Virus record (IMG/VR): IMGVR_UViG_2545824688_000002
Span: 8,428 to 72,427 of that record
DNA from: a virus
Lineage: Duplodnaviria; Caudoviricetes
Reading direction: 5' to 3' (one strand)
Length of the DNA stretch: 64,000 bases
Below the pieces are notes generated by a model that made no database searches, had not been told where the DNA came from, and saw only the letters and a list, made by a program, of their open reading frames with translations. A program made the translations under genes and the position numbers. Shown here in pieces: positions 50,363 to 62,870 of this stretch. Numbering within the stretch: the first letter of the stretch is position 1; each line of letters starts with the position of its first letter.

Positions 50363-50674
50363 TTACTCCTCTTTTAAAATCTTTTTTATAGGCTTTTCTG
50401 ATGCTAACTTTTCCTCATATTCGGGATTTTTCACTATCATTCCATTTTTGGTTACCGCTGCTAAATCCATCTTAACCTCAAGATCATTAAGTGCTGCCAG
50501 AATAATTCCTTGTAAAAACTCTTGCTTCGATAGTTTCAACGCCCGCCGTATATACTCAATCCTCCGATTGTTGTAGGTGCTGAACGTGAGAGAAAATCTC
50601 ACCTCCTCGGCTTGAACATCGCTTTGGGTTCTCGATACCAACTGGTTCAGGTGCTTTTCTAGGAACTCACTCAC
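50363..50674 (-). CDS. AT-rich moron, possible RHH DNA-binding protein
   Basis: VRFSLTF...RIEYIRRALKLSKQEF; inserted between helicase and primase. Confidence 0.55.
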   Translation of the reverse strand: MSEFLEKHLNQLVSRTQSDVQAEEVRFSLTFSTYNNRRIEYIRRALKLSKQEFLQGIILAALNDLEVKMDLAAVTKNGMIVKNPEYEEKLASEKPIKKILKEE

Positions 50675-50807
50675 ATGAACTCTCCTTCCATTGTCTTCCT
50701 GAGAAGATAATAACACCATAAAAGAGGATATGCAAGTGATTTTTTGCACCAATTTGGTGTATTTTATAGTCAACACTACCTGCATTATTGACTATAATCA
50801 ACGGTAA

Positions 50808-52151: not shown

Positions 52152-52198
52152 TCGGGTCACCTCCGTTAATGTACGTTAACAAAATGATCATACTTTAC

Positions 52199-52212
52199 GG
52201 AACGTTTGTTCT
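52199..52212. promoter_or_regulatory. Putative LexA/DinR SOS box upstream of the helicase
   Basis: GGAACGTTTGTTCT; 13-bp core identical to the box at 1553. Confidence 0.65.
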
Positions 52213-52405
52213 CTTTTTTGTACAAGTACATTGTACTTCCGTTGGTACATTTTTGCAACATTCGACAAAAAATTCCGCCATTCGAACTACTTCCTCGTCA
52301 AATACCACGCGAGATAATGCCGGTCCCACAGACGTCGTGCTCTCGCTTCCATCCGTGCAGCCCTCCGCAACTGCCAGCCGTGATAGCGTTCGCGAACCCA
52401 CCGGA

Positions 52406-52633: not shown

Positions 52634-52822
52634 TCAATGTATCGGTATTGGCGACCAATCCATCGGACTACCTGTTAATAGCGAAATTAATCCGCGCCAA
52701 ATTAATACCGGCAATGCTATCGGATTTCCCCCAGCGTAAATAATGACGAACTCTAATACGAGTAATCCGAGCGCAAGGGTATTGAGAATTGACATTACTT
52801 GACGCATCAAAAAGCGTATCAC
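52634..52822 (-). CDS. Small membrane protein
   Basis: Hydrophobic; GTGA overlap with the loader stop. Confidence 0.5.
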   Translation of the reverse strand: MIRFLMRQVMSILNTLALGLLVLEFVIIYAGGNPIALPVLIWRGLISLLTGSPMDWSPIPIH

Positions 52823-53604
52823 TTCCGCATCCCCCTTTTTGATTCGCCAACAAACGGAACCACCGCGCACTGATCCCGGACCCGATCCGCCAGCCGCGCG
52901 TCAAACACCTGCGCCAGCTCGTCGATTGTGACGTTCGAAGTGTACACGGTCGGCTTGCGCTCGGTGACCCTCGCATTAATGATCGCGTGCAGGTCACCAC
53001 GAAACGCTTCGGTCGCCTCCCGTACGCCAACATCGTCGAGCACCGCAAATGGTGCGGACTTGGCGGCCTCCATGGCGCGATAGTACGCCGCCGACGCTGG
53101 TCCTGCGATGTGGTCCGGCACACGCGGCCGGTTGAACGCGTTAAATTGCGTCTGCCATTCGTTCACGTCCAGGAAGTACACCGGCCGTTCAAGCGGTCGC
53201 CTATTCCGTTGAAGGCTGCCGATATAATGGCGGACTAGGTACGTATTGGCAATCGCTGCGGCTGTCGTCGTCTTGCCGGTGCCGGTCGCGGCCGAGTACA
53301 GGTATAGCGATTTTATCCGGTCGGCGGGATCGTCCGAGAACATCCGGTCGAACGTCTCGATGTACATGTCGACCTTCCGGTATGCGTCCGCCTGGTCCGC
53401 GCGAGCGACCGAGGATGCGACCGTCACGTTGCGGTAGTCGGCCGGGATGCTCGCGGCGGCTACGCGTCCGCCCGTTCCGCTGGCTCCGTGGAGGGCGATG
53501 AAGTGCGGGCAAAGGCGGGTGCAGACGGCAGGGTCGGTGGACGTCCGGCAGGGTTCGCGTAGGATGCAGGCGGCTGCGTTGGTTTGCGGTGTTGTAGCGG
53601 TCAA
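52819..53604 (-). CDS. DnaC/IstB-like AAA+ helicase loader
   Basis: TGTGKTT, VLDDVG, TSN, RLADRV. Confidence 0.9.
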   Translation of the reverse strand: MTATTPQTNAAACILREPCRTSTDPAVCTRLCPHFIALHGASGTGGRVAAASIPADYRNVTVASSVARADQADAYRKVDMYIETFDRMFSDDPADRIKSLYLYSAATGTGKTTTAAAIANTYLVRHYIGSLQRNRRPLERPVYFLDVNEWQTQFNAFNRPRVPDHIAGPASAAYYRAMEAAKSAPFAVLDDVGVREATEAFRGDLHAIINARVTERKPTVYTSNVTIDELAQVFDARLADRVRDQCAVVPFVGESKRGMRK

Positions 53605-53619
53605 ATCGCGTTCACCTCC

Positions 53620-53647
53620 ACTATCCAAAAGTAATGTTCTGTTAAGT
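53620..53647 (+). repeat. dif-like site 1 ACTATCCAAAA-GTAATG-TTCTGTTAAGT
   Basis: 11-6-11 layout; arms match B. subtilis dif at 7/11 and 8/11. Confidence 0.7.
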
Positions 53648-53842
53648 TCTTGTAACAGTGAACTCCCAAATGCACTCATTCACACCGTTTGCTGGTGCAA
53701 TATCTTTAATGTTTGCTCTCGTAAATACCTTTCCTTTATGGCATCCTTCAACGCATTTTGCTTCGTACTCCAAGTCTAAAGCTATGCATTTCATATGGTA
53801 TTCCAGTAATACCTTTGTGTCTATCAACTCAATTTTACCCAC
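53642..53842 (-). CDS. Cassette gene, Cys-containing hypothetical protein
   Basis: Stop codon lies inside site 1. Confidence 0.55.
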   Translation of the reverse strand: MGKIELIDTKVLLEYHMKCIALDLEYEAKCVEGCHKGKVFTRANIKDIAPANGVNECIWEFTVTRT

Positions 53843-53867
53843 TCACATCGTGCCCCCTAAAGTTTTA

Positions 53868-54020
53868 TTAGTTTTGATCTTCCTTTGGATTTGCTCTCCA
53901 AGGAATGTTTTTTGTTCGTTTTGTGTAACCACATGTATAACAATCATAACAGCGTTTTCCTTTTAATGCTTGATATCTACCACAAGCATTGCAATACCCC
54001 AGATTAAAAGTAAAATTCAT
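53868..54020 (-). CDS. Cassette gene, 50-aa zinc-ribbon-like protein
   Basis: MNFTFNLGYCNACGRY...RCYDCYTC; SD GAGGGG just after site 2. Confidence 0.55.
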   Translation of the reverse strand: MNFTFNLGYCNACGRYQALKGKRCYDCYTCGYTKRTKNIPWRANPKEDQN

Positions 54021-54036
54021 ACTTTATACACCCCTC

Positions 54037-54064
54037 TCTTAACAAATCGATTGTTTTGTAAAAC
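54037..54064 (+). repeat. dif-like site 2 TCTTAACAAAT-CGATTG-TTTTGTAAAAC
   Basis: Same layout and orientation as site 1. Confidence 0.7.
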
Positions 54065-54072
54065 AGTCATGT

Positions 54073-54267
54073 TCAGTCTTCTTCAAATTCAGTGTCAACA
54101 CCATCATCCCTGAGAAAATCGCTTAAAATCTCTAAATCGCCACTAGCGACAACCATTTCCCAGGCTTCCCCTTCATAGCCGAATTCCTCAGCAAGCGTAG
54201 TGATAGCACGATCGAATCGTGTAAATTCGTACTCACCGCAATTAACAACCAATTTCATCACTTTCAT
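54073..54267 (-). CDS. Cassette gene, small acidic protein
   Basis: SD GAGAGGA; strongly acidic 64 aa. Confidence 0.6.
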   Translation of the reverse strand: MKVMKLVVNCGEYEFTRFDRAITTLAEEFGYEGEAWEMVVASGDLEILSDFLRDDGVDTEFEED

Positions 54268-54298
54268 CCTCTCCGGTTTCGATTGGTTTGTTTATGAC

Positions 54299-54523
54299 CT
54301 ATCCTTGGTAAGAGTACGACTCTTGCACCATCTCAAAATATTCATCTGGCAGCACATCTTTTGCCACCTGACACCAATAGCCCAAATCCCGAACAGCTTC
54401 TGCCAGCTCATCGATCGCATGCTGCTCTTCGATCTCCTTCCCGTCTAAAAACCATTTGCCAGTGTCGTTTCTTTCCAGCATGTGCGCATCCTTTTTATGC
54501 AGGCATACTTTAATTGGCTTCAT
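54299..54523 (-). CDS. Cassette gene, hypothetical protein
   Basis: ATG 54523 after GGGGAGGT adjacent to site 3. Confidence 0.6.
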   Translation of the reverse strand: MKPIKVCLHKKDAHMLERNDTGKWFLDGKEIEEQHAIDELAEAVRDLGYWCQVAKDVLPDEYFEMVQESYSYQG

Positions 54524-54538
54524 CGTTCTTACCTCCCC

Positions 54539-54566
54539 ATTTAACAAATCGTGTGTTTTGTTAAGC
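54539..54566 (+). repeat. dif-like site 3 ATTTAACAAAT-CGTGTG-TTTTGTTAAGC
   Basis: Same layout and orientation. Confidence 0.7.
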
Positions 54567-54740
54567 GTATGAGCCTCGAAAATCACCATCAGGTTCAGCT
54601 TTCGCCATAACATCGTCAAGTGAGCATTTAGCATTTTCGCAACACCAATACTTGAATGAATCGTAATAACCCACATATTCGACTAGTTTCATTTTCACAC
54701 CACAAGAACAAATTGGTCTTTTCTCAAATTTCACTCTCAT
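54561..54740 (-). CDS. Cassette gene, 59-aa zinc-ribbon-like protein
   Basis: MRVKFEKRPICSCGVKM...WCCENAKC; SD next to site 4; TAA inside site 3. Confidence 0.6.
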   Translation of the reverse strand: MRVKFEKRPICSCGVKMKLVEYVGYYDSFKYWCCENAKCSLDDVMAKAEPDGDFRGSYA

Positions 54741-54751
54741 GTCGAACCTCC

Positions 54752-54779
54752 ATTTATCTAAATTACCGATTTGTTAAAT
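54752..54779 (+). repeat. dif-like site 4 ATTTATCTAAA-TTACCG-ATTTGTTAAAT
   Basis: Same layout and orientation. Confidence 0.65.
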
Positions 54780-55054
54780 CAGTCTCTTTGTCGCGCTTCT
54801 CTCCGCCACTTTAAACCAAGAGGATCGTCAGCGGCTGCCTCAATTCGCTCATAGTCAGATTCAGTGCCCCATTGCATCACGGCTGTCTCAGTTTCATTTT
54901 TGTACCCGAAAAAACCAACAGATCTCCAATCTTTGAATTGTTCGGTTAATCCTCGCTCCATGCACCATGCTTTGAACATTTCCGCTAGGAATACGTTGCT
55001 ATTTGTCCGAAAAGCCTTTACAGGCCTTCCGTTAACAATTGCTATACCCACCAT
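54779..55054 (-). CDS. Cassette gene, hypothetical protein
   Basis: SD GGGAGG; stop touches site 4. Confidence 0.6.
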   Translation of the reverse strand: MVGIAIVNGRPVKAFRTNSNVFLAEMFKAWCMERGLTEQFKDWRSVGFFGYKNETETAVMQWGTESDYERIEAAADDPLGLKWRREARQRD

Positions 55055-55078
55055 ATTGACGATCCTCCCGATAACTAT

Positions 55079-55252
55079 TTAGTTGAGGCGATCATTTATG
55101 AAATCAGCAACCTCGAAGTCCTCACCTTCGAAAACTCTCTTCCCGTCTTGAATAACCTCAAATGTATCCATATTTCTTCTTTTTACAGTAAACTCCCCAA
55201 ATTTCTTTTCCTCATTTTCAATAACGAAAATATCCATATCTGTGACCTTCAT
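55079..55252 (-). CDS. Cassette gene, small acidic protein
   Basis: MKVTDMDIFVIENEEKK...; SD overlaps site 5. Confidence 0.6.
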   Translation of the reverse strand: MKVTDMDIFVIENEEKKFGEFTVKRRNMDTFEVIQDGKRVFEGEDFEVADFINDRLN

Positions 55253-55261
55253 GCTCTTCCC

Positions 55262-55289
55262 CCTTTTCAAATTACACATTGTGTTATGT
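55262..55289 (+). repeat. dif-like site 5 CCTTTTCAAAT-TACACA-TTGTGTTATGT
   Basis: Same layout and orientation; most divergent copy. Confidence 0.6.
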
Positions 55290-55356
55290 CAAACTCATTG
55301 ACTATAAGTTCCAATTACACCAAAATGGTAATATGCGTTACTAAGGAGAGGATCCC

Positions 55357-55653
55357 ATGCCCTTATTCTTTGGAGTATCGTTTATAGTTCTTGCGGCGAT
55401 TGGCAAGGTGCCTTCAACAAATCTACTCTGCTTATTGATTGCGGCACTATTATTGATTGCCCGTGAATTTATTACAAGAACGAAGATTTCGGATTCCTTG
55501 CTGTTCTTCGTTGTTTTCAGTGTTGTTGTTCTACCGCTTTTTAATTTTTGGAAAGATGTAAATCTACCGGACGTTCAACCGACTGTATTATTAACTATGT
55601 TTGGGGTCGTTCTCGTGTTGACCGGGTTTAAGACGCACCTACACCGACAGTAA
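55357..55653 (+). CDS. Antisense four-TM membrane protein (moron)
   Basis: Four hydrophobic segments; SD AAGGAG; AT-rich. Confidence 0.65.
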   Translation: MPLFFGVSFIVLAAIGKVPSTNLLCLLIAALLLIAREFITRTKISDSLLFFVVFSVVVLPLFNFWKDVNLPDVQPTVLLTMFGVVLVLTGFKTHLHRQ

Positions 55654-55657
55654 CTCG

Positions 55658-56062
55658 TCACAACCACCCCGCCAGCTCCTCCGCACTCGGAGCGTCAACC
55701 ACCGCCCGCCCCCGTTCCTTTTCCCGCGCCACCTCCGCCAACACTTTCGGCAGCACGCGGCCCTTCATATACACAGACATAAACGTAAAGTTGATGCCGG
55801 GGTACTCGCGCGTCGGCCGGTACTCGCGGAAGCACGCGTCAATAAACCGGCGCACCACCTCCGTTCCATGTTCGCCCACCATCCGCTTTATCTCGCCTTG
55901 TTCCCGCCTCCATCCGCCGCGTCCGGGCACGTAGTCGATTCCGTACAGCTCGCGGTGGCGGTCGCGGAGGTACTCCGTAAACGTCAGCGTGTTCCAGTCC
56001 GAGAGCTCCCGTTCGCGCCAGGCTTTGGCGGGCGGGAGGCGGCGTTTAGTCGCGTGTGTCAT
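55658..56062 (-). CDS. Phage replication-associated protein (tentative)
   Basis: WNTLTFTEYL...YGIDYVP...FIDACFREY; upstream of the loader in transcription direction. Confidence 0.55.
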   Translation of the reverse strand: MTHATKRRLPPAKAWRERELSDWNTLTFTEYLRDRHRELYGIDYVPGRGGWRREQGEIKRMVGEHGTEVVRRFIDACFREYRPTREYPGINFTFMSVYMKGRVLPKVLAEVAREKERGRAVVDAPSAEELAGWL

Positions 56063-61796: not shown

Positions 61797-61830
61797 AAAA
61801 AAAATAACGCCAGCCCCGAAGGACTAGCGT
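61797..61830 (-). terminator. Integrase terminator
   Basis: ACGCTAGTCC-TTCG-GGGCTGGCGT then T-tract. Confidence 0.8.
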
Positions 61831-62870
61831 ATAATTTTCCGTTCCTTATTCAGTTTTCCAGTAATCTCGTTCATAGGCGAATATTGCTCATGCTGGTGCT
61901 TGATCGACGCCTTTGATAGATGAGTGTACCGCATGACCATTCGCAAATCGGAGTGCCCGAGGATAAGTTGTAGATGACGGATGTCACCGCCTGCCTCCAG
62001 GAACATTGTCGCTGCCGTGTGTCGGAAAAGGTGCGGATGCACCCGGATTGGGATACCCGCCTGTCTCGCGTAGTCTTTCAAGCGGTGACGAAATTGTCCG
62101 TCACGCAACCGTTCCCCATAGTTCGCGAGAAAGACATAGTCCGACTCAAAGTCGGAATTCTCTTTTATTAACTCTTGAATCAACTTTACAGTCTGTCGCT
62201 TGAGCGGCACCGTGCGTGACTTTCTGTTCTTTGATTCCTCCGCTCGTACCGTAATCATGCCCAAATCAAAGTCAATATCCGTCCGCCTCAAAGACAGTGC
62301 TTCATTAATACGAAGGAATCCATCAAGCAATACGTTCATAACCACATAATCACGGAATCCGCTGTACCTCCGTTGATTTGGCGCGGCCAGGAGTTTTCTC
62401 AACTGCTCGACCGACATAATGTGAATCTCGTTCTCGTTCTCTTCAACGGGCTTTACGCCGTCAAACGGATTTGTGTCGATCAGTTCTTCTTCCGCGAGAT
62501 ACCGGAACATCGTCCGCATTGTTTTCAGCCGCGTATTCACGGAGGAGGCAGTAATCCCCACGGTCTGCTCCGCCTCCGACTTGAACTTGTGCCCGTCAAA
62601 CCGAACCTTCTCGTTCAGATTCCATACGATATACTCGCGGATAAAGTCCGGAGTCACCAGTCGAACGTCCCTCCCGTAACCACGCAAATCCATGTACTCG
62701 ACGAAGAATCCGTAATTTTCCCGGTAACTTTCTAGCGTGCGTTCCTTCCTCCCCTCCGCGACCTTTGCGTGATAGAACCGCTCGAATAGCGCATCTAATG
62801 AATTATCGGACGCGACCGAGAATCTTTCCGTTTTCTGACGCCGTCCCTTACGCTTGTCCAAAGCGCCCAT
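61824..62870 (-). CDS. Tyrosine integrase
   Basis: LRINE, HLFRH, LGHSDLRMVMRY catalytic motifs; next to tRNA. Confidence 0.95.
   Translation of the reverse strand: MGALDKRKGRRQKTERFSVASDNSLDALFERFYHAKVAEGRKERTLESYRENYGFFVEYMDLRGYGRDVRLVTPDFIREYIVWNLNEKVRFDGHKFKSEAEQTVGITASSVNTRLKTMRTMFRYLAEEELIDTNPFDGVKPVEENENEIHIMSVEQLRKLLAAPNQRRYSGFRDYVVMNVLLDGFLRINEALSLRRTDIDFDLGMITVRAEESKNRKSRTVPLKRQTVKLIQELIKENSDFESDYVFLANYGERLRDGQFRHRLKDYARQAGIPIRVHPHLFRHTAATMFLEAGGDIRHLQLILGHSDLRMVMRYTHLSKASIKHQHEQYSPMNEITGKLNKERKIIR

What the first reader, a model, noticed from the sequence alone, without database searches (positions are those of the whole stretch)
53620..55289. Integron-like gene-cassette array delimited by five directly repeated dif-like (Xer-type) sites
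Seen: an AT-rich island splits the replication module between the DnaC-like loader and ORF 55658. It carries five 28-bp 11-6-11 sites in the same orientation: ACTATCCAAAA-GTAATG-TTCTGTTAAGT (53620), TCTTAACAAAT-CGATTG-TTTTGTAAAAC (54037), ATTTAACAAAT-CGTGTG-TTTTGTTAAGC (54539), ATTTATCTAAA-TTACCG-ATTTGTTAAAT (54752) and CCTTTTCAAAT-TACACA-TTGTGTTATGT (55262). Arms are conserved while all five 6-bp spacers differ. Each site is directly followed on the minus strand by an RBS, and stop codons of cassette genes fall inside or touch sites 1, 3 and 4. The four intervals hold 1-2 tiny ORFs each (seven in total) with no promoter that I could see. Known: B. subtilis dif is ACTTCCTAGAA-TATATA-TTATGTAAACT, acted on by CodV/RipX; Acinetobacter pdif modules move genes with dif-like sites, but usually in alternating orientation. 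Inference: a phage gene-capture and shuffling platform using host Xer or another tyrosine recombinase, with cassettes expressed from the early transcript. No dedicated recombinase is adjacent.
Basis: partly seen in the sequence, partly recalled or inferred. Interest (0 to 1): 0.87.

Follow-up and report, generated by a model that had tools for sequence, protein, structure and literature searches.

The report
Ordered junction linkers between swappable phage genes
The five sites are real copies of a widespread family of short, partly palindromic linkers that sit between small early genes of Brevibacillus-type phages, keep a fixed order from phage to phage while the genes between them are swapped, and so look like built-in joints for gene exchange rather than a proven Xer or integron system.

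Summary
All five 28-bp sites are where stated, each abuts the ribosome-binding site of the next minus-strand gene, and they are the only five hits of an arms-only matrix in 64 kb.

They belong to a large family, TTAACAMAW-N6-WTKTGWTAA plus SD. I found 162 unique copies in 111 loci plus the window. Named Brevibacillus laterosporus phages also carry it.

The 6-nt centres fall into about ten discrete types: 145 of 162 copies are canonical. The types keep one order in 39 arrays, with 93 of 93 adjacent pairs in order.

The genes behind a given type are almost all unrelated, for example 21 families after 22 CACACG linkers. Cassette E with both its linkers (54532-54779) occurs at 98-99% identity in other samples with unlike flanks.

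An RNA hairpin, a promoter and an integron are not supported. Xer action is untested. The arms match the host XerD arm at 7-8 of 11 positions, the XerC arm at 5 of 11, and no centre matches dif.

Best reading: recombination linkers, like the PeSLs of T4-type phages. Whether exchange is short-homology or site-specific stays open.

This scan's earlier AI notes describe similar linker arrays in other phages.

The parts
53620..53647 (-). Site 1: linker of centre type CATTAC, directly 5' of the SD of the DnaC-like gene. It contains the TAA stop of ORF A.
   Evidence: The same type sits before DnaC in L005 and L006.
54037..54064 (-). Site 2: linker of centre type CAATCG, 5' of the SD of ORF B.
   Evidence: 18 nt are identical to the L005 copy.
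54539..54566 (-). Site 3: linker of centre type CACACG, 5' of the SD of ORF D. It contains the TAA stop of ORF E and has perfect 8-nt inverted arms.
54752..54779 (-). Site 4: linker of centre type CGGTAA, 5' of the SD of ORF E. The TGA stop of ORF F abuts it.
   Evidence: 29 nt are 96.6% identical to the L005 copy.
55262..55289 (-). Site 5: linker of centre type TGTGTA, 5' of the SD of ORF G, in the divergent gap between G and H. It is first in the array and probably lies close to the array's promoter.
   Evidence: Relatives of this type occur in L004, L006, L073, L083.
54268..54298 (-). Degenerate CAATCG-like linker between D and C, so ORF C is flanked by two linkers of one type.
   Evidence: (D1 repeat)
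55060..55090 (-). Degenerate TAGTTA-like linker between G and F. The homology of cassette G in run X3 ends here, at 55071.
53642..53842 (-). ORF A, 66 aa, no family found.
53868..54020 (-). ORF B, 50 aa, Cys-rich (CxxC motifs), no family above threshold.
54073..54267 (-). ORF C, 64 aa, phrog_4117 (unknown function). DNA relatives occur in Bacillus cereus-group phages.
54299..54523 (-). ORF D, 74 aa, no family found.
54561..54740 (-). ORF E, 59 aa, Cys-rich. With both linkers (54532-54779) it recurs at 98-99% identity in other samples with unlike flanks.
   Evidence: More distant homologues without linkers.
54779..55054 (-). ORF F, 91 aa, no family found.
55079..55252 (-). ORF G, 57 aa. The cassette 55071-55283 is present in run X3 with 3 differences.
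55357..55653 (+). ORF H, 98 aa, hydrophobic protein on the opposite strand. A 43%-identical homologue sits at the same place in L006.
52819..53604 (-). DnaC-like helicase loader, the GC-rich flank of the array.
55658..56062 (-). ORF of phrog_6154, the GC-rich flank on the other side. The gap from this gene to DnaC is the variable slot in relatives.
61824..62870 (-). Tyrosine integrase of the provirus, the only recombinase found in the record. It lies 6.5 kb from the array and is not shown to be linked to it.

Best explanation
The five sites are copies of a conserved family of about 26-30-nt junction linkers: stop codon, TTAACAMAW, a 6-nt type-specific centre, WTKTGWTAA, then the SD. These linkers separate small, AT-rich early genes in Brevibacillus-type phages.

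The linkers form an ordered scaffold: TGCTCA > TGTGTA > TAGTTA > CGGTAA > CACACG > CAATCG > CATTAC > GAGAAA > TATTTC. The window carries five canonical copies and two degenerate ones, inserted between a phrog_6154 gene and dnaC.

Genes are exchanged between phages at these linkers. A crossover inside a linker joins an intact upstream ORF, which ends in the left arm, to an intact downstream translation start, with the SD after the right arm.

Shown: the family exists, its order is fixed, the cargo is diverse, and homology breaks fall at the linkers.

Inferred: the exchange runs mainly by recombination on the short shared sequence. That means about 30 nt between linkers of the same type and about 9 nt of arm between different types. 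The machinery would be host or phage general recombination functions, as proposed for the PeSL cassettes of T4-type phages. The palindromic arms may in addition bind a dimeric protein.
For: Family and statistics:
- The arms-only matrix gives 284 hits against 15 in shuffles at 13 bits or more. That yields 162 unique copies, 106 of them with an SD just behind.
- The 55-row alignment is gapless.
- Exact-pattern scans of IMG/VR gave 8, 42, 10 and 23 stretches for four centre types.
- 14 records of Brevibacillus laterosporus phages match.
- 4 of 61 Brevibacillus-family genomes hold the 21-nt pattern; reversed-pattern controls gave 0.

Order:
- 39 arrays, with 93 of 93 adjacent canonical pairs in one order.
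- The centre at a position defined by its neighbours is the expected one in 42 of 48 cases. The other 6 are exact other canonical types.

Cargo:
- Distinct protein families directly behind a linker type: 21 for 22 CACACG, 20 for 22 CAATCG, 18 for 19 CGGTAA, 16 for 22 CATTAC.

Breakpoints:
- The only significant DNA similarity between the window's and L005's gaps is the linkers (29 nt at 96.6%, 18 nt at 100%, 21 nt at 95%).
- Most pairwise HSPs of +-400-nt contexts span only about -2 to +33 of the element.
- One-sided homology blocks start exactly at the element: L065/L090, 97% over 0..426; L060/L066, 92% over 0..332.
- L005 and L111 share a cassette at 95.4% up to TTAACAAAACA and then continue with different centre types.
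- Cassette E plus both linkers (54532-54779) lies with 2-4 differences in contigs of runs X1, X3 and X14 with unlike sequence on both sides. Cassette G (55071-55283) lies in X3.
- Internal ends of HSPs of 90% identity or more fall inside an element in 6 of 37 cases, against 2.6% expected.

Upstream ORFs:
- Of 51 with a stop nearby, 26 end at the TAA inside TTAACA and 8 at a TGA 3-5 nt before it.

Variable slot:
- The gap from o55658 to DnaC is 52 to 3243 nt in 30 relatives and always of lower GC than the adjacent DnaC gene.
Against: - No recombination was observed directly. All evidence is comparative.
- 30 of 37 internal HSP ends are not at a detected element. Several of these lie in conserved flanking genes or at junctions without a canonical linker.
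- No RecT, ERF or RecA gene is in the record.
- A 9-nt arm is very short for homologous exchange between linker types, yet 6 of 16 recurrent gene families follow different types.
- The centres are invariant while several arm columns are polymorphic. Plain homology-driven exchange does not predict that.
- Conservation could be due to a cis-regulatory role alone, with breakpoints sorted by selection.
Confidence: 0.45

Rival explanations
1. The linkers are core sites of a tyrosine recombinase, either host XerD-like or a small phage-borne enzyme. Inverted arms bind the enzyme. The 6-nt centres act as heterospecific overlap regions, so that each site recombines only with its own type. This keeps the array in register while cassettes are swapped. 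It is the first reader's idea in sharpened form.
For: - The geometry is 9-11 / 6 / 9-11 with inverted arms: 73.6% of arm cells are complementary, against 29.5-46.1% when slid.
- The centres are discrete and invariant, while the arms vary at fixed degenerate columns.
- In the IMG/VR arrays no two neighbouring elements share a type: 0 same-type adjacent pairs in 39 arrays.
- Both arms match the XerD arm of the candidate Brevibacillus dif at 7-8 of 11 (counted by eye).
- A 185-198-aa protein made of the tyrosine-recombinase catalytic domain alone (PF00589, E 1e-24) lies on the same strand at the head of several arrays. It is present in 11 of 40 array-bearing records.
- Duplicated same-type linkers flank an insert, as a circle integration would leave. 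The X14 contig has 34 identical nt on either side of 798 nt. G035 has two CACACG copies 622 nt apart.
Against: - No recombinase is common to the arrays: 29 of 40 records lack the small one, and only 4 of 16 records that are at least 90% complete have it.
- The window has only its 348-aa integrase, 6.5 kb away.
- The XerC arm matches at 5 of 11 and no centre is TATATA.
- Same-type direct repeats persist in X14, G035 and Jenst. An active enzyme should delete between them.
- The same gene family follows different types in 6 of 16 families.
- The breakpoints seen at centre borders are equally expected from any crossover in the shared arms.
- The tight fusion with stop codon and SD is not needed for a recombination site.
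Confidence: 0.22
2. The linkers are cis-regulatory elements of the early operon, and recombination at them is incidental. One form of this is an operator for a dimeric repressor or roadblock protein, in the manner of stoperators. Another is a translation stop-restart leader, in the manner of the SAS/ESAS of Cluster K mycobacteriophages.
For: - Every copy in the window, and 106 of 162 overall, ends right at an SD.
- The left arm carries the upstream stop codon.
- The consensus is palindromic without RNA covariation, as for a protein-binding DNA site.
- Precedent: ESAS are imperfect inverted repeats just upstream of start-associated sequences and have no known function (PMC3203893, passages read).
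- The A-rich stretch before GGAGG extends complementarity to the 3' end of 16S rRNA (recalled, not tested).
Against: - An operator does not explain type-specific invariant centres kept in one order.
- ESAS stay with their gene family, while these linkers stay and the genes change.
- In the window the elements are confined to one 2-kb island, and close relatives do without them (L002, L003, L007-L009).
- No phage protein common to the arrays was found. One candidate regulator is present in 4 of 41 records.
- Near-identical cassettes in unlike contexts need recombination at or near the linkers whatever their other role.
Confidence: 0.22
3. The palindrome folds in the mRNA into a hairpin that serves as a processing or stabilising signal between cistrons.
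For: Site 3 can form an 8-bp stem of -8.7 kcal/mol. Intergenic processing sites are known in T7 and SP82 early RNAs (recalled).
Against: - No covariation: 73.6% of cells paired against 73.5% in shuffles, with 239 of 500 shuffles at least as high.
- Fold z-scores are -1.6 to +0.5 for the five sites.
- Two stem positions are unpaired in 25 and 38 of 55 copies.
- There is no Rfam match at E up to 1.
Confidence: 0.04

Closest known systems
PeSL (promoter-early stem-loop) cassettes of T4-type phages (Arbiol et al. 2010, PMC2839356; Comeau et al. 2014, PMC4122927; abstracts and outlines read)
   Same: Both are short conserved intergenic motifs between non-essential small genes in hyperplastic regions. 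Both serve as points of exchange between otherwise unrelated sequences. Duplicated linkers around an insert fit integration of a circle, as proposed for PeSL mini-circles.
   Different: A PeSL is a sigma-70 promoter plus a terminator stem-loop. Here no promoter or terminator is present. The element is about 26 nt, carries a stop codon and abuts the SD. It has inverted arms and comes in about ten centre types kept in a fixed order. The phages are temperate Firmicute phages.
Short conserved 'boundary sequences' or linkers of the modular theory of lambdoid phage evolution (as cited in PMC3029335, passages read)
   Same: Homologous recombination at short conserved sequences at module junctions is the proposed source of mosaicism in both cases.
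   Different: [quoted passage not shown] Here they form a dense, ordered, typed series at single-gene resolution.
dif / pdif / IMEX sites acted on by XerC/XerD
   Same: Both have 11-6-11 geometry with inverted arms. The outer arm motif TGT[T/A]AA is like the XerD arm of the candidate Brevibacillus dif.
   Different: No arm resembles the XerC arm, and no centre is TATATA. The context is a phage operon. No binding data exist.
Integron attC cassette arrays
   Same: Both are co-oriented, promoterless small cassettes expressed from upstream, with highly diverse cargo.
   Different: There is no intI, attI or Pc. By recall, attC sites are 57-141 bp and conserved in structure, not sequence, whereas these linkers are 26 nt and conserved in sequence. 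Each slot has its own linker type.
SAS/ESAS of Cluster K mycobacteriophages (PMC3203893, passages read) and stoperators of Cluster A (search listing only)
   Same: These are repeated motifs in one orientation, right upstream of translation starts. ESAS are imperfect inverted repeats.
   Different: ESAS follow the gene family from genome to genome. Here the linker stays and the gene changes.

Membership tests
Xer-type (dif/pdif) site | 28-bp site of two 11-nt inverted arms around a 6-nt centre | tested here: met
   The alignment of 55 copies is gapless. Arms are 73.6% complementary, against 29.5-46.1% when slid.
Xer-type (dif/pdif) site | One arm like the host XerD arm | tested here: inconclusive
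   The candidate dif of 5 Brevibacillus genomes has the XerD arm TTATGT[A/T]AAC[T/A]. Element arms match at 6-8 of 11, counted by eye, where about 3-4 are expected in AT-rich DNA.
Xer-type (dif/pdif) site | Other arm like the host XerC arm | tested here: not met
   GAGTCCGATAA against the left arm of site 3: 5 of 11. Both arms of the element look alike instead.
Xer-type (dif/pdif) site | Binding and cleavage by XerC/XerD (CodV/RipX) | not testable with these tools
   This needs EMSA and cleavage assays.
pdif module | Modules bounded by sites in alternating orientation | tested here: not met
All five sites, and all arrays, are in one orientation relative to transcription.
Integron | intI integrase with attI and Pc next to the array | tested here: not met
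   The only full PF00589 hit in the record is the 348-aa phage integrase at 61824-62870, 6.5 kb away.
Integron | attC sites: long imperfect inverted repeats conserved in structure, not sequence | tested here: not met
   The linkers are 26-30 nt and conserved in sequence, with 90-100% identity within a type between phages. The attC definition is recalled.
PeSL cassette | Strong sigma-70 promoter plus terminator stem-loop | tested here: not met
   No promoter or terminator match lies at the sites. Fold energies are not better than shuffles. The element ends at the SD, so a -10 box inside it would leave the SD out of the transcript.
PeSL cassette | Exchange point between unrelated sequences in a hyperplastic region | tested here: met
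PeSL cassette | Mini-circles formed by recombination between neighbouring copies | not testable with these tools
   Only indirect evidence: same-type linkers duplicated around an insert.
SAS/ESAS-type start-associated element | Element tied to a given gene family across genomes | tested here: not met
   21 families follow 22 CACACG linkers. 6 of 16 recurrent families follow different types.
Structured RNA element | Base pairs kept by compensatory change | tested here: not met
   Covariation score 0.054 against 0.051 in shuffles. No Rfam family matches.

The most novel reading that the evidence does not exclude
The linkers are a natural set of heterospecific recombination sites. One dimeric tyrosine recombinase, either host XerD-like or the small catalytic-domain-only enzyme found at the head of some arrays, binds the shared arms. 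The about ten invariant 6-nt centres act as addresses that let each slot recombine only with the same slot of another phage. That would be a natural form of recombinase-mediated cassette exchange, keeping an operon in register while its cargo turns over.
Probability: 0.2. Interest if true: 0.9.

Novelty: new variant of a known kind. Interest (0 to 1): 0.7.

Why it matters
How phage genomes become mosaics at single-gene resolution is an old open question. Linker-mediated exchange was proposed decades ago, but such linkers are rarely visible.

Here a typed, ordered and abundant linker family marks the exchange points. It is present in cultivable Brevibacillus laterosporus phages such as Jimmer, Osiris, Abouo, Davies and Jenst. 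The mechanism can therefore be tested directly, by mutating arms against centres in recombination-deficient hosts.

If the centres act as addresses, this would be a new natural recombination logic and a ready-made toolbox of orthogonal sites. The arrays also point to a large pool of small early phage genes, which are likely host-takeover or anti-defence functions.

Tried and rejected
RNA hairpin: rejected. There is no covariation, the folds are no better than shuffles and Rfam gives nothing.

Promoter or terminator at the sites: none.

Cargo function:
- Pfam and PHROGs on the eight island ORFs matched only C, to phrog_4117 of unknown function.
- ORF F has no relative in IMG/VR by pattern scan.

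First matrix iteration: it drifted into AT-rich noise and was dropped.

Phage-encoded partner:
- RecT, ERF and RecA are absent from the record.
- The small tyrosine recombinase is in 11 of 40 array records.
- A phrog_36/1058 regulator is in 4 of 41.
- Neither is common to the arrays.

Its 19-nt right part found the candidate dif.

More distant homologues of E (52-66% identity) in metagenomes: 0 of 5 are flanked by linkers.

Array neighbourhood: the arrays of other phages are not next to this DnaC module. Only 2 of 74 pattern-derived loci are, and both are second pieces of the L005 and L006 contigs.

Sequencing runs: no run holds the whole stretch, the best share being 0.19. Parts of the island without cover say nothing.

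Literature:
- The Berg et al. 2016 motif of Jenst and SecTim467 (PMC4909266, passages read) is probably another element. They did not find it in Osiris or Powder, where this linker occurs. Its letters are only in a figure that I could not see, so identity is not excluded.
- Merrill et al. 2014 (PMC4168068) has none of the searched words.
- Text searches for the linker's letters and for the concept found nothing relevant.
- Supplements of all papers were not opened.
Full report
THE OBSERVATION

The window is 64 kb of a 72.4-kb provirus record whose genes run on the minus strand. An island of about 0.36-0.47 GC (53620-55657) interrupts a flank of 0.59-0.70 GC. On one side is a DnaC-like loader (phrog_50, E 1e-42; true start TTG 53604, SD 53613-19). 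On the other is ORF 55658-56062 (phrog_6154).

On the minus strand each one ends at an SD that is followed by a start codon. The stops of ORFs A and E lie inside sites 1 and 3, and the stop of F touches site 4.

The sites are partly palindromic. Site 3 reads TTAACAAA-N8-TTTGTTAA. The 8-mer or its complement occurs five times in 64 kb, four of them in the island.

Two more copies, both degenerate, were overlooked. A CAATCG-like one lies between D and C (54268-54298). A TAGTTA-like one lies between G and F (about 55060-55090). Only the A/B junction has none.

RELATIVES OF THE SAME PHAGE

I fetched 31 IMG/VR loci through the DnaC-like protein. In 30 of them both flanking genes are found. The gap between them ranges from 52 to 3243 nt and always has lower GC than the adjacent DnaC gene. 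So this is a variable slot.

Three relatives (L004, L005, L006) carry the same kind of element in front of the SDs of quite different genes. Between the gaps of the window and L005, the only significant DNA similarities are the elements themselves: 29 nt at 96.6%, 18 nt at 100% and 21 nt at 95%.

Only ORF H has a protein homologue in those gaps, in L006 at 43% identity. The closest named host for the DnaC gene is Brevibacillus sp. SYP-B805, at 77%.

A WIDESPREAD, TYPED AND ORDERED FAMILY

Exact-pattern scans of IMG/VR for four centre types returned 8, 42, 10 and 23 stretches. The 17-nt pattern includes chance hits.

A 41-nt query found the element in 14 records of Brevibacillus laterosporus phages: Jimmer1/2, Abouo, Davies, Osiris, Powder, Jenst and SecTim467. 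Four of 61 genomes of the Brevibacillus family hold the 21-nt CACACG pattern, with 0 hits for the reversed control.

Fifty-five copies align without a single gap (A1). The consensus is TTAACAMAW, six central bases, then WTKTGWTAA(A), followed by the SD.

I built a matrix from the arms only, leaving the centre neutral. At 13 bits or more it finds 284 hits in 1.15 Mb of loci, against 15 in block-shuffled sequence. After merging strands and removing duplicate contexts, 162 unique copies remain.

Their centres are not random. The counts are CGGTAA 31, CACACG 26, CATTAC 23, CAATCG 21, GAGAAA 9, TAGTTA 7, TGTGTA 6, TGCTCA 6, TATTTC 5 and GCTCAA 3. The first four types were used to fetch loci and are inflated. 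The others were not. In all, 145 of 162 copies are canonical.

In 39 arrays with two or more canonical copies, all 93 adjacent pairs follow one order: GCTCAA .. TGCTCA > TGTGTA > TAGTTA > CGGTAA > CACACG > CAATCG > CATTAC > GAGAAA > TATTTC. None is out of order.

The window follows it: TGTGTA (site 5), TAGTTA-like, CGGTAA (site 4), CACACG (site 3), CAATCG-like, CAATCG (site 2), CATTAC (site 1), then dnaC. The lytic phage Jenst is an exception, with CACACG twice and a different sequence of types.

I also assigned an element to a slot by its neighbours instead of by its own centre. The centre is then the expected 6-mer in 42 of 48 cases, and an exact other canonical 6-mer in the other 6. Single-base variants were not seen. 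Several arm columns, by contrast, are polymorphic in every type.

THE CARGO CHANGES WHILE THE LINKERS STAY

Directly behind 22 CACACG linkers stand 21 unrelated protein families. The figures are 20 for 22 CAATCG, 18 for 19 CGGTAA and 16 for 22 CATTAC.

Sixteen families recur directly behind a linker in two or more loci. Ten always follow the same type and six follow different types. Slots are therefore preferred but not absolute.

Of 70 elements from a first regex set, 51 have an upstream ORF of 40 or more codons ending nearby. In 26 of these the stop is the TAA inside TTAACA. In 8 more it is a TGA 3-5 nt before it. The element is thus the whole intergenic space, from stop to SD.

In other phages the arrays are not next to this replication module. 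The array is a module of its own, which in this lineage sits before dnaC.

BREAKPOINTS

In pairwise blastn of +-400-nt contexts, most matches cover only about -2 to +33 of the element.

One-sided blocks begin exactly at the element: L065/L090 at 97% over 0..426, and L060/L066 at 92% over 0..332. Others end just behind it: L045 and L052 against L081 at +31.

L005 and L111 share a 304-nt cassette at 95.4% up to TTAACAAAACA. L005 then continues with a CAATCG linker and its gene. L111 continues with a CATTAC linker and the gene that L059 has behind the same linker.

Contigs of public runs gave the cleanest case. The 248 nt from 54532 to 54779 are the CGGTAA linker, gene E, and the CACACG linker with its SD. 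They lie with 3-4 differences in an 8.5-kb contig of X3 and a 10.9-kb contig of X14, which share one context, and 54532-54768 lies with 2 differences in X1. The sequence is unlike on both sides.

In X2, gene E is preceded by a hybrid linker with a TAGTTA centre and E's own right arm. Cassette G (55071-55283) is in X3. One X1 contig joins 53569 to 55660, which is a relative without the island.

A blunt count is less flattering. Of 37 internal ends of HSPs with 90% identity or more between arrays, 6 lie inside a detected element, against 2.6% expected. The other 30 or so lie elsewhere. Some are in conserved flanking genes and some are at junctions without a canonical linker.

WHAT THE ELEMENT IS NOT

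- It is not an RNA hairpin. Pairing is 73.6% against 73.5% in shuffles, folds have z-scores of -1.6 to +0.5, and there is no Rfam hit.
- It is not a sigma-70 promoter or a terminator. A -10 box inside an element that ends at the SD would leave the SD untranscribed.
- It is not an integron. There is no intI or attI, and the sites are short and conserved in sequence.

THE XER QUESTION

Five Brevibacillus genomes share a candidate dif, GAGTCCGATAA-TATATA-TTATGT[A/T]AAC[T/A]. Both arms of the linkers resemble its XerD arm at 6-8 of 11 positions, by my own count. The XerC arm matches site 3 at 5 of 11. No linker centre is TATATA.

The record has a 348-aa integrase 6.5 kb away and no RecT, ERF or RecA.

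A 185-198-aa protein consisting of the tyrosine-recombinase catalytic domain alone stands on the same strand at the head of several arrays. L059 has one on each side of its array. However, it is present in only 11 of 40 array-bearing records, and in 4 of the 16 that are at least 90% complete. It is absent from the window.

Same-type linkers duplicated around an insert are what integration of a circle would leave. Examples are X14 (34 identical nt, 798 nt apart), G035 (two CACACG copies 622 nt apart) and gene C in the window. They also show that such repeats persist.

Breakpoints at the centre borders are expected from any crossover within the shared arms. They do not decide between homologous and site-specific exchange.

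READING

It is shown that the linkers are real, typed, ordered and abundant, and that homology between phages breaks at them.

I infer that they work as crossover points, so that whole ORFs are exchanged without damage to stop or start signals. I put short-homology recombination first (0.45). A recombinase with heterospecific centres (0.22) and a purely regulatory element (0.22) follow.

COMPARISON WITH THE LITERATURE

The nearest described things are the PeSL cassettes of T4-type phages (abstracts read) and the 'boundary sequence' linkers of the modular theory (passages read). ESAS of Cluster K mycobacteriophages resemble the position and the inverted repeat, but they stay with their genes.

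I found no description of this family:
- The Brevibacillus phage papers report another, promoter-like motif or nothing.
- Text searches for the letters and for the concept gave nothing relevant.
- Figures and supplements were not visible to me.

EARLIER NOTES OF THIS SCAN

These are AI notes, which I did not check. They describe comparable palindromic junction linkers with ordered centres in SPbeta-like, Bacillus cereus-group and gut Clostridia phages, and the same stretch of this genome. I saw them after reaching my reading. They agree with it and were not used as support.

Noticed in passing
L059:9291-9887 (minus) and L059:1588-2127 (minus); also L060, L076, L089, L115, L123: A 185-198-aa protein made only of the tyrosine-recombinase catalytic domain (PF00589, E 1e-24) lies on the same strand at the head of several linker arrays. 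L059 has two copies (47% identical), one on each side of the array. In L089 its stop abuts the GCTCAA linker. It is present in 11 of 40 array-bearing records.
   Followed up: partly
L104 (G043:C1:3444775-3444802), L102 (G039:C26:102027-102045), L098: Brevibacillus genomes hold extra dif-like sites besides the candidate dif. One is a nearly palindromic site with two XerD-like arms around TATATA. Another is a second dif copy with centre TATATC. These could mark elements that exploit Xer.
   Followed up: no
window 50363-50785, 52161-52300 and 52634-52870: Further AT-rich insertions lie in the same replication module. One is a 140-aa ORF between primase and DnaB. Another is a low-GC gap before DnaB with a TTTGTTAA half-site at 52176. 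The third is a hydrophobic 78-aa ORF after the DnaC-like gene. None carries a full linker.
   Followed up: no
L127 (G035:C53:25656-28521): A chromosomal array reads TAGTTA > CGGTAA > CACACG > CACACG > CAATCG. Several of its slots lack a good SD or ORF, so it looks like a decaying prophage array with a duplicated linker type.
   Followed up: partly
L094 (Jenst) upstream of locus positions 2850 and 20617: Two intergenic regions share a CTCCACCATAKATAGTG-like word. This may be the promoter-like motif that Berg et al. 2016 reported 19 times in Jenst. It is different from the linker.
   Followed up: no
L130-L134: More distant homologues of cassette protein E (52-66% identity) sit in other metagenomic phage contigs with ordinary junctions and no linkers. 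The cargo families therefore also circulate outside the linker system.
   Followed up: partly
window 53569 / 55660: A contig of run X1 joins these two places, skipping 2090 nt. A close relative without the whole island exists in that sample.
   Followed up: no
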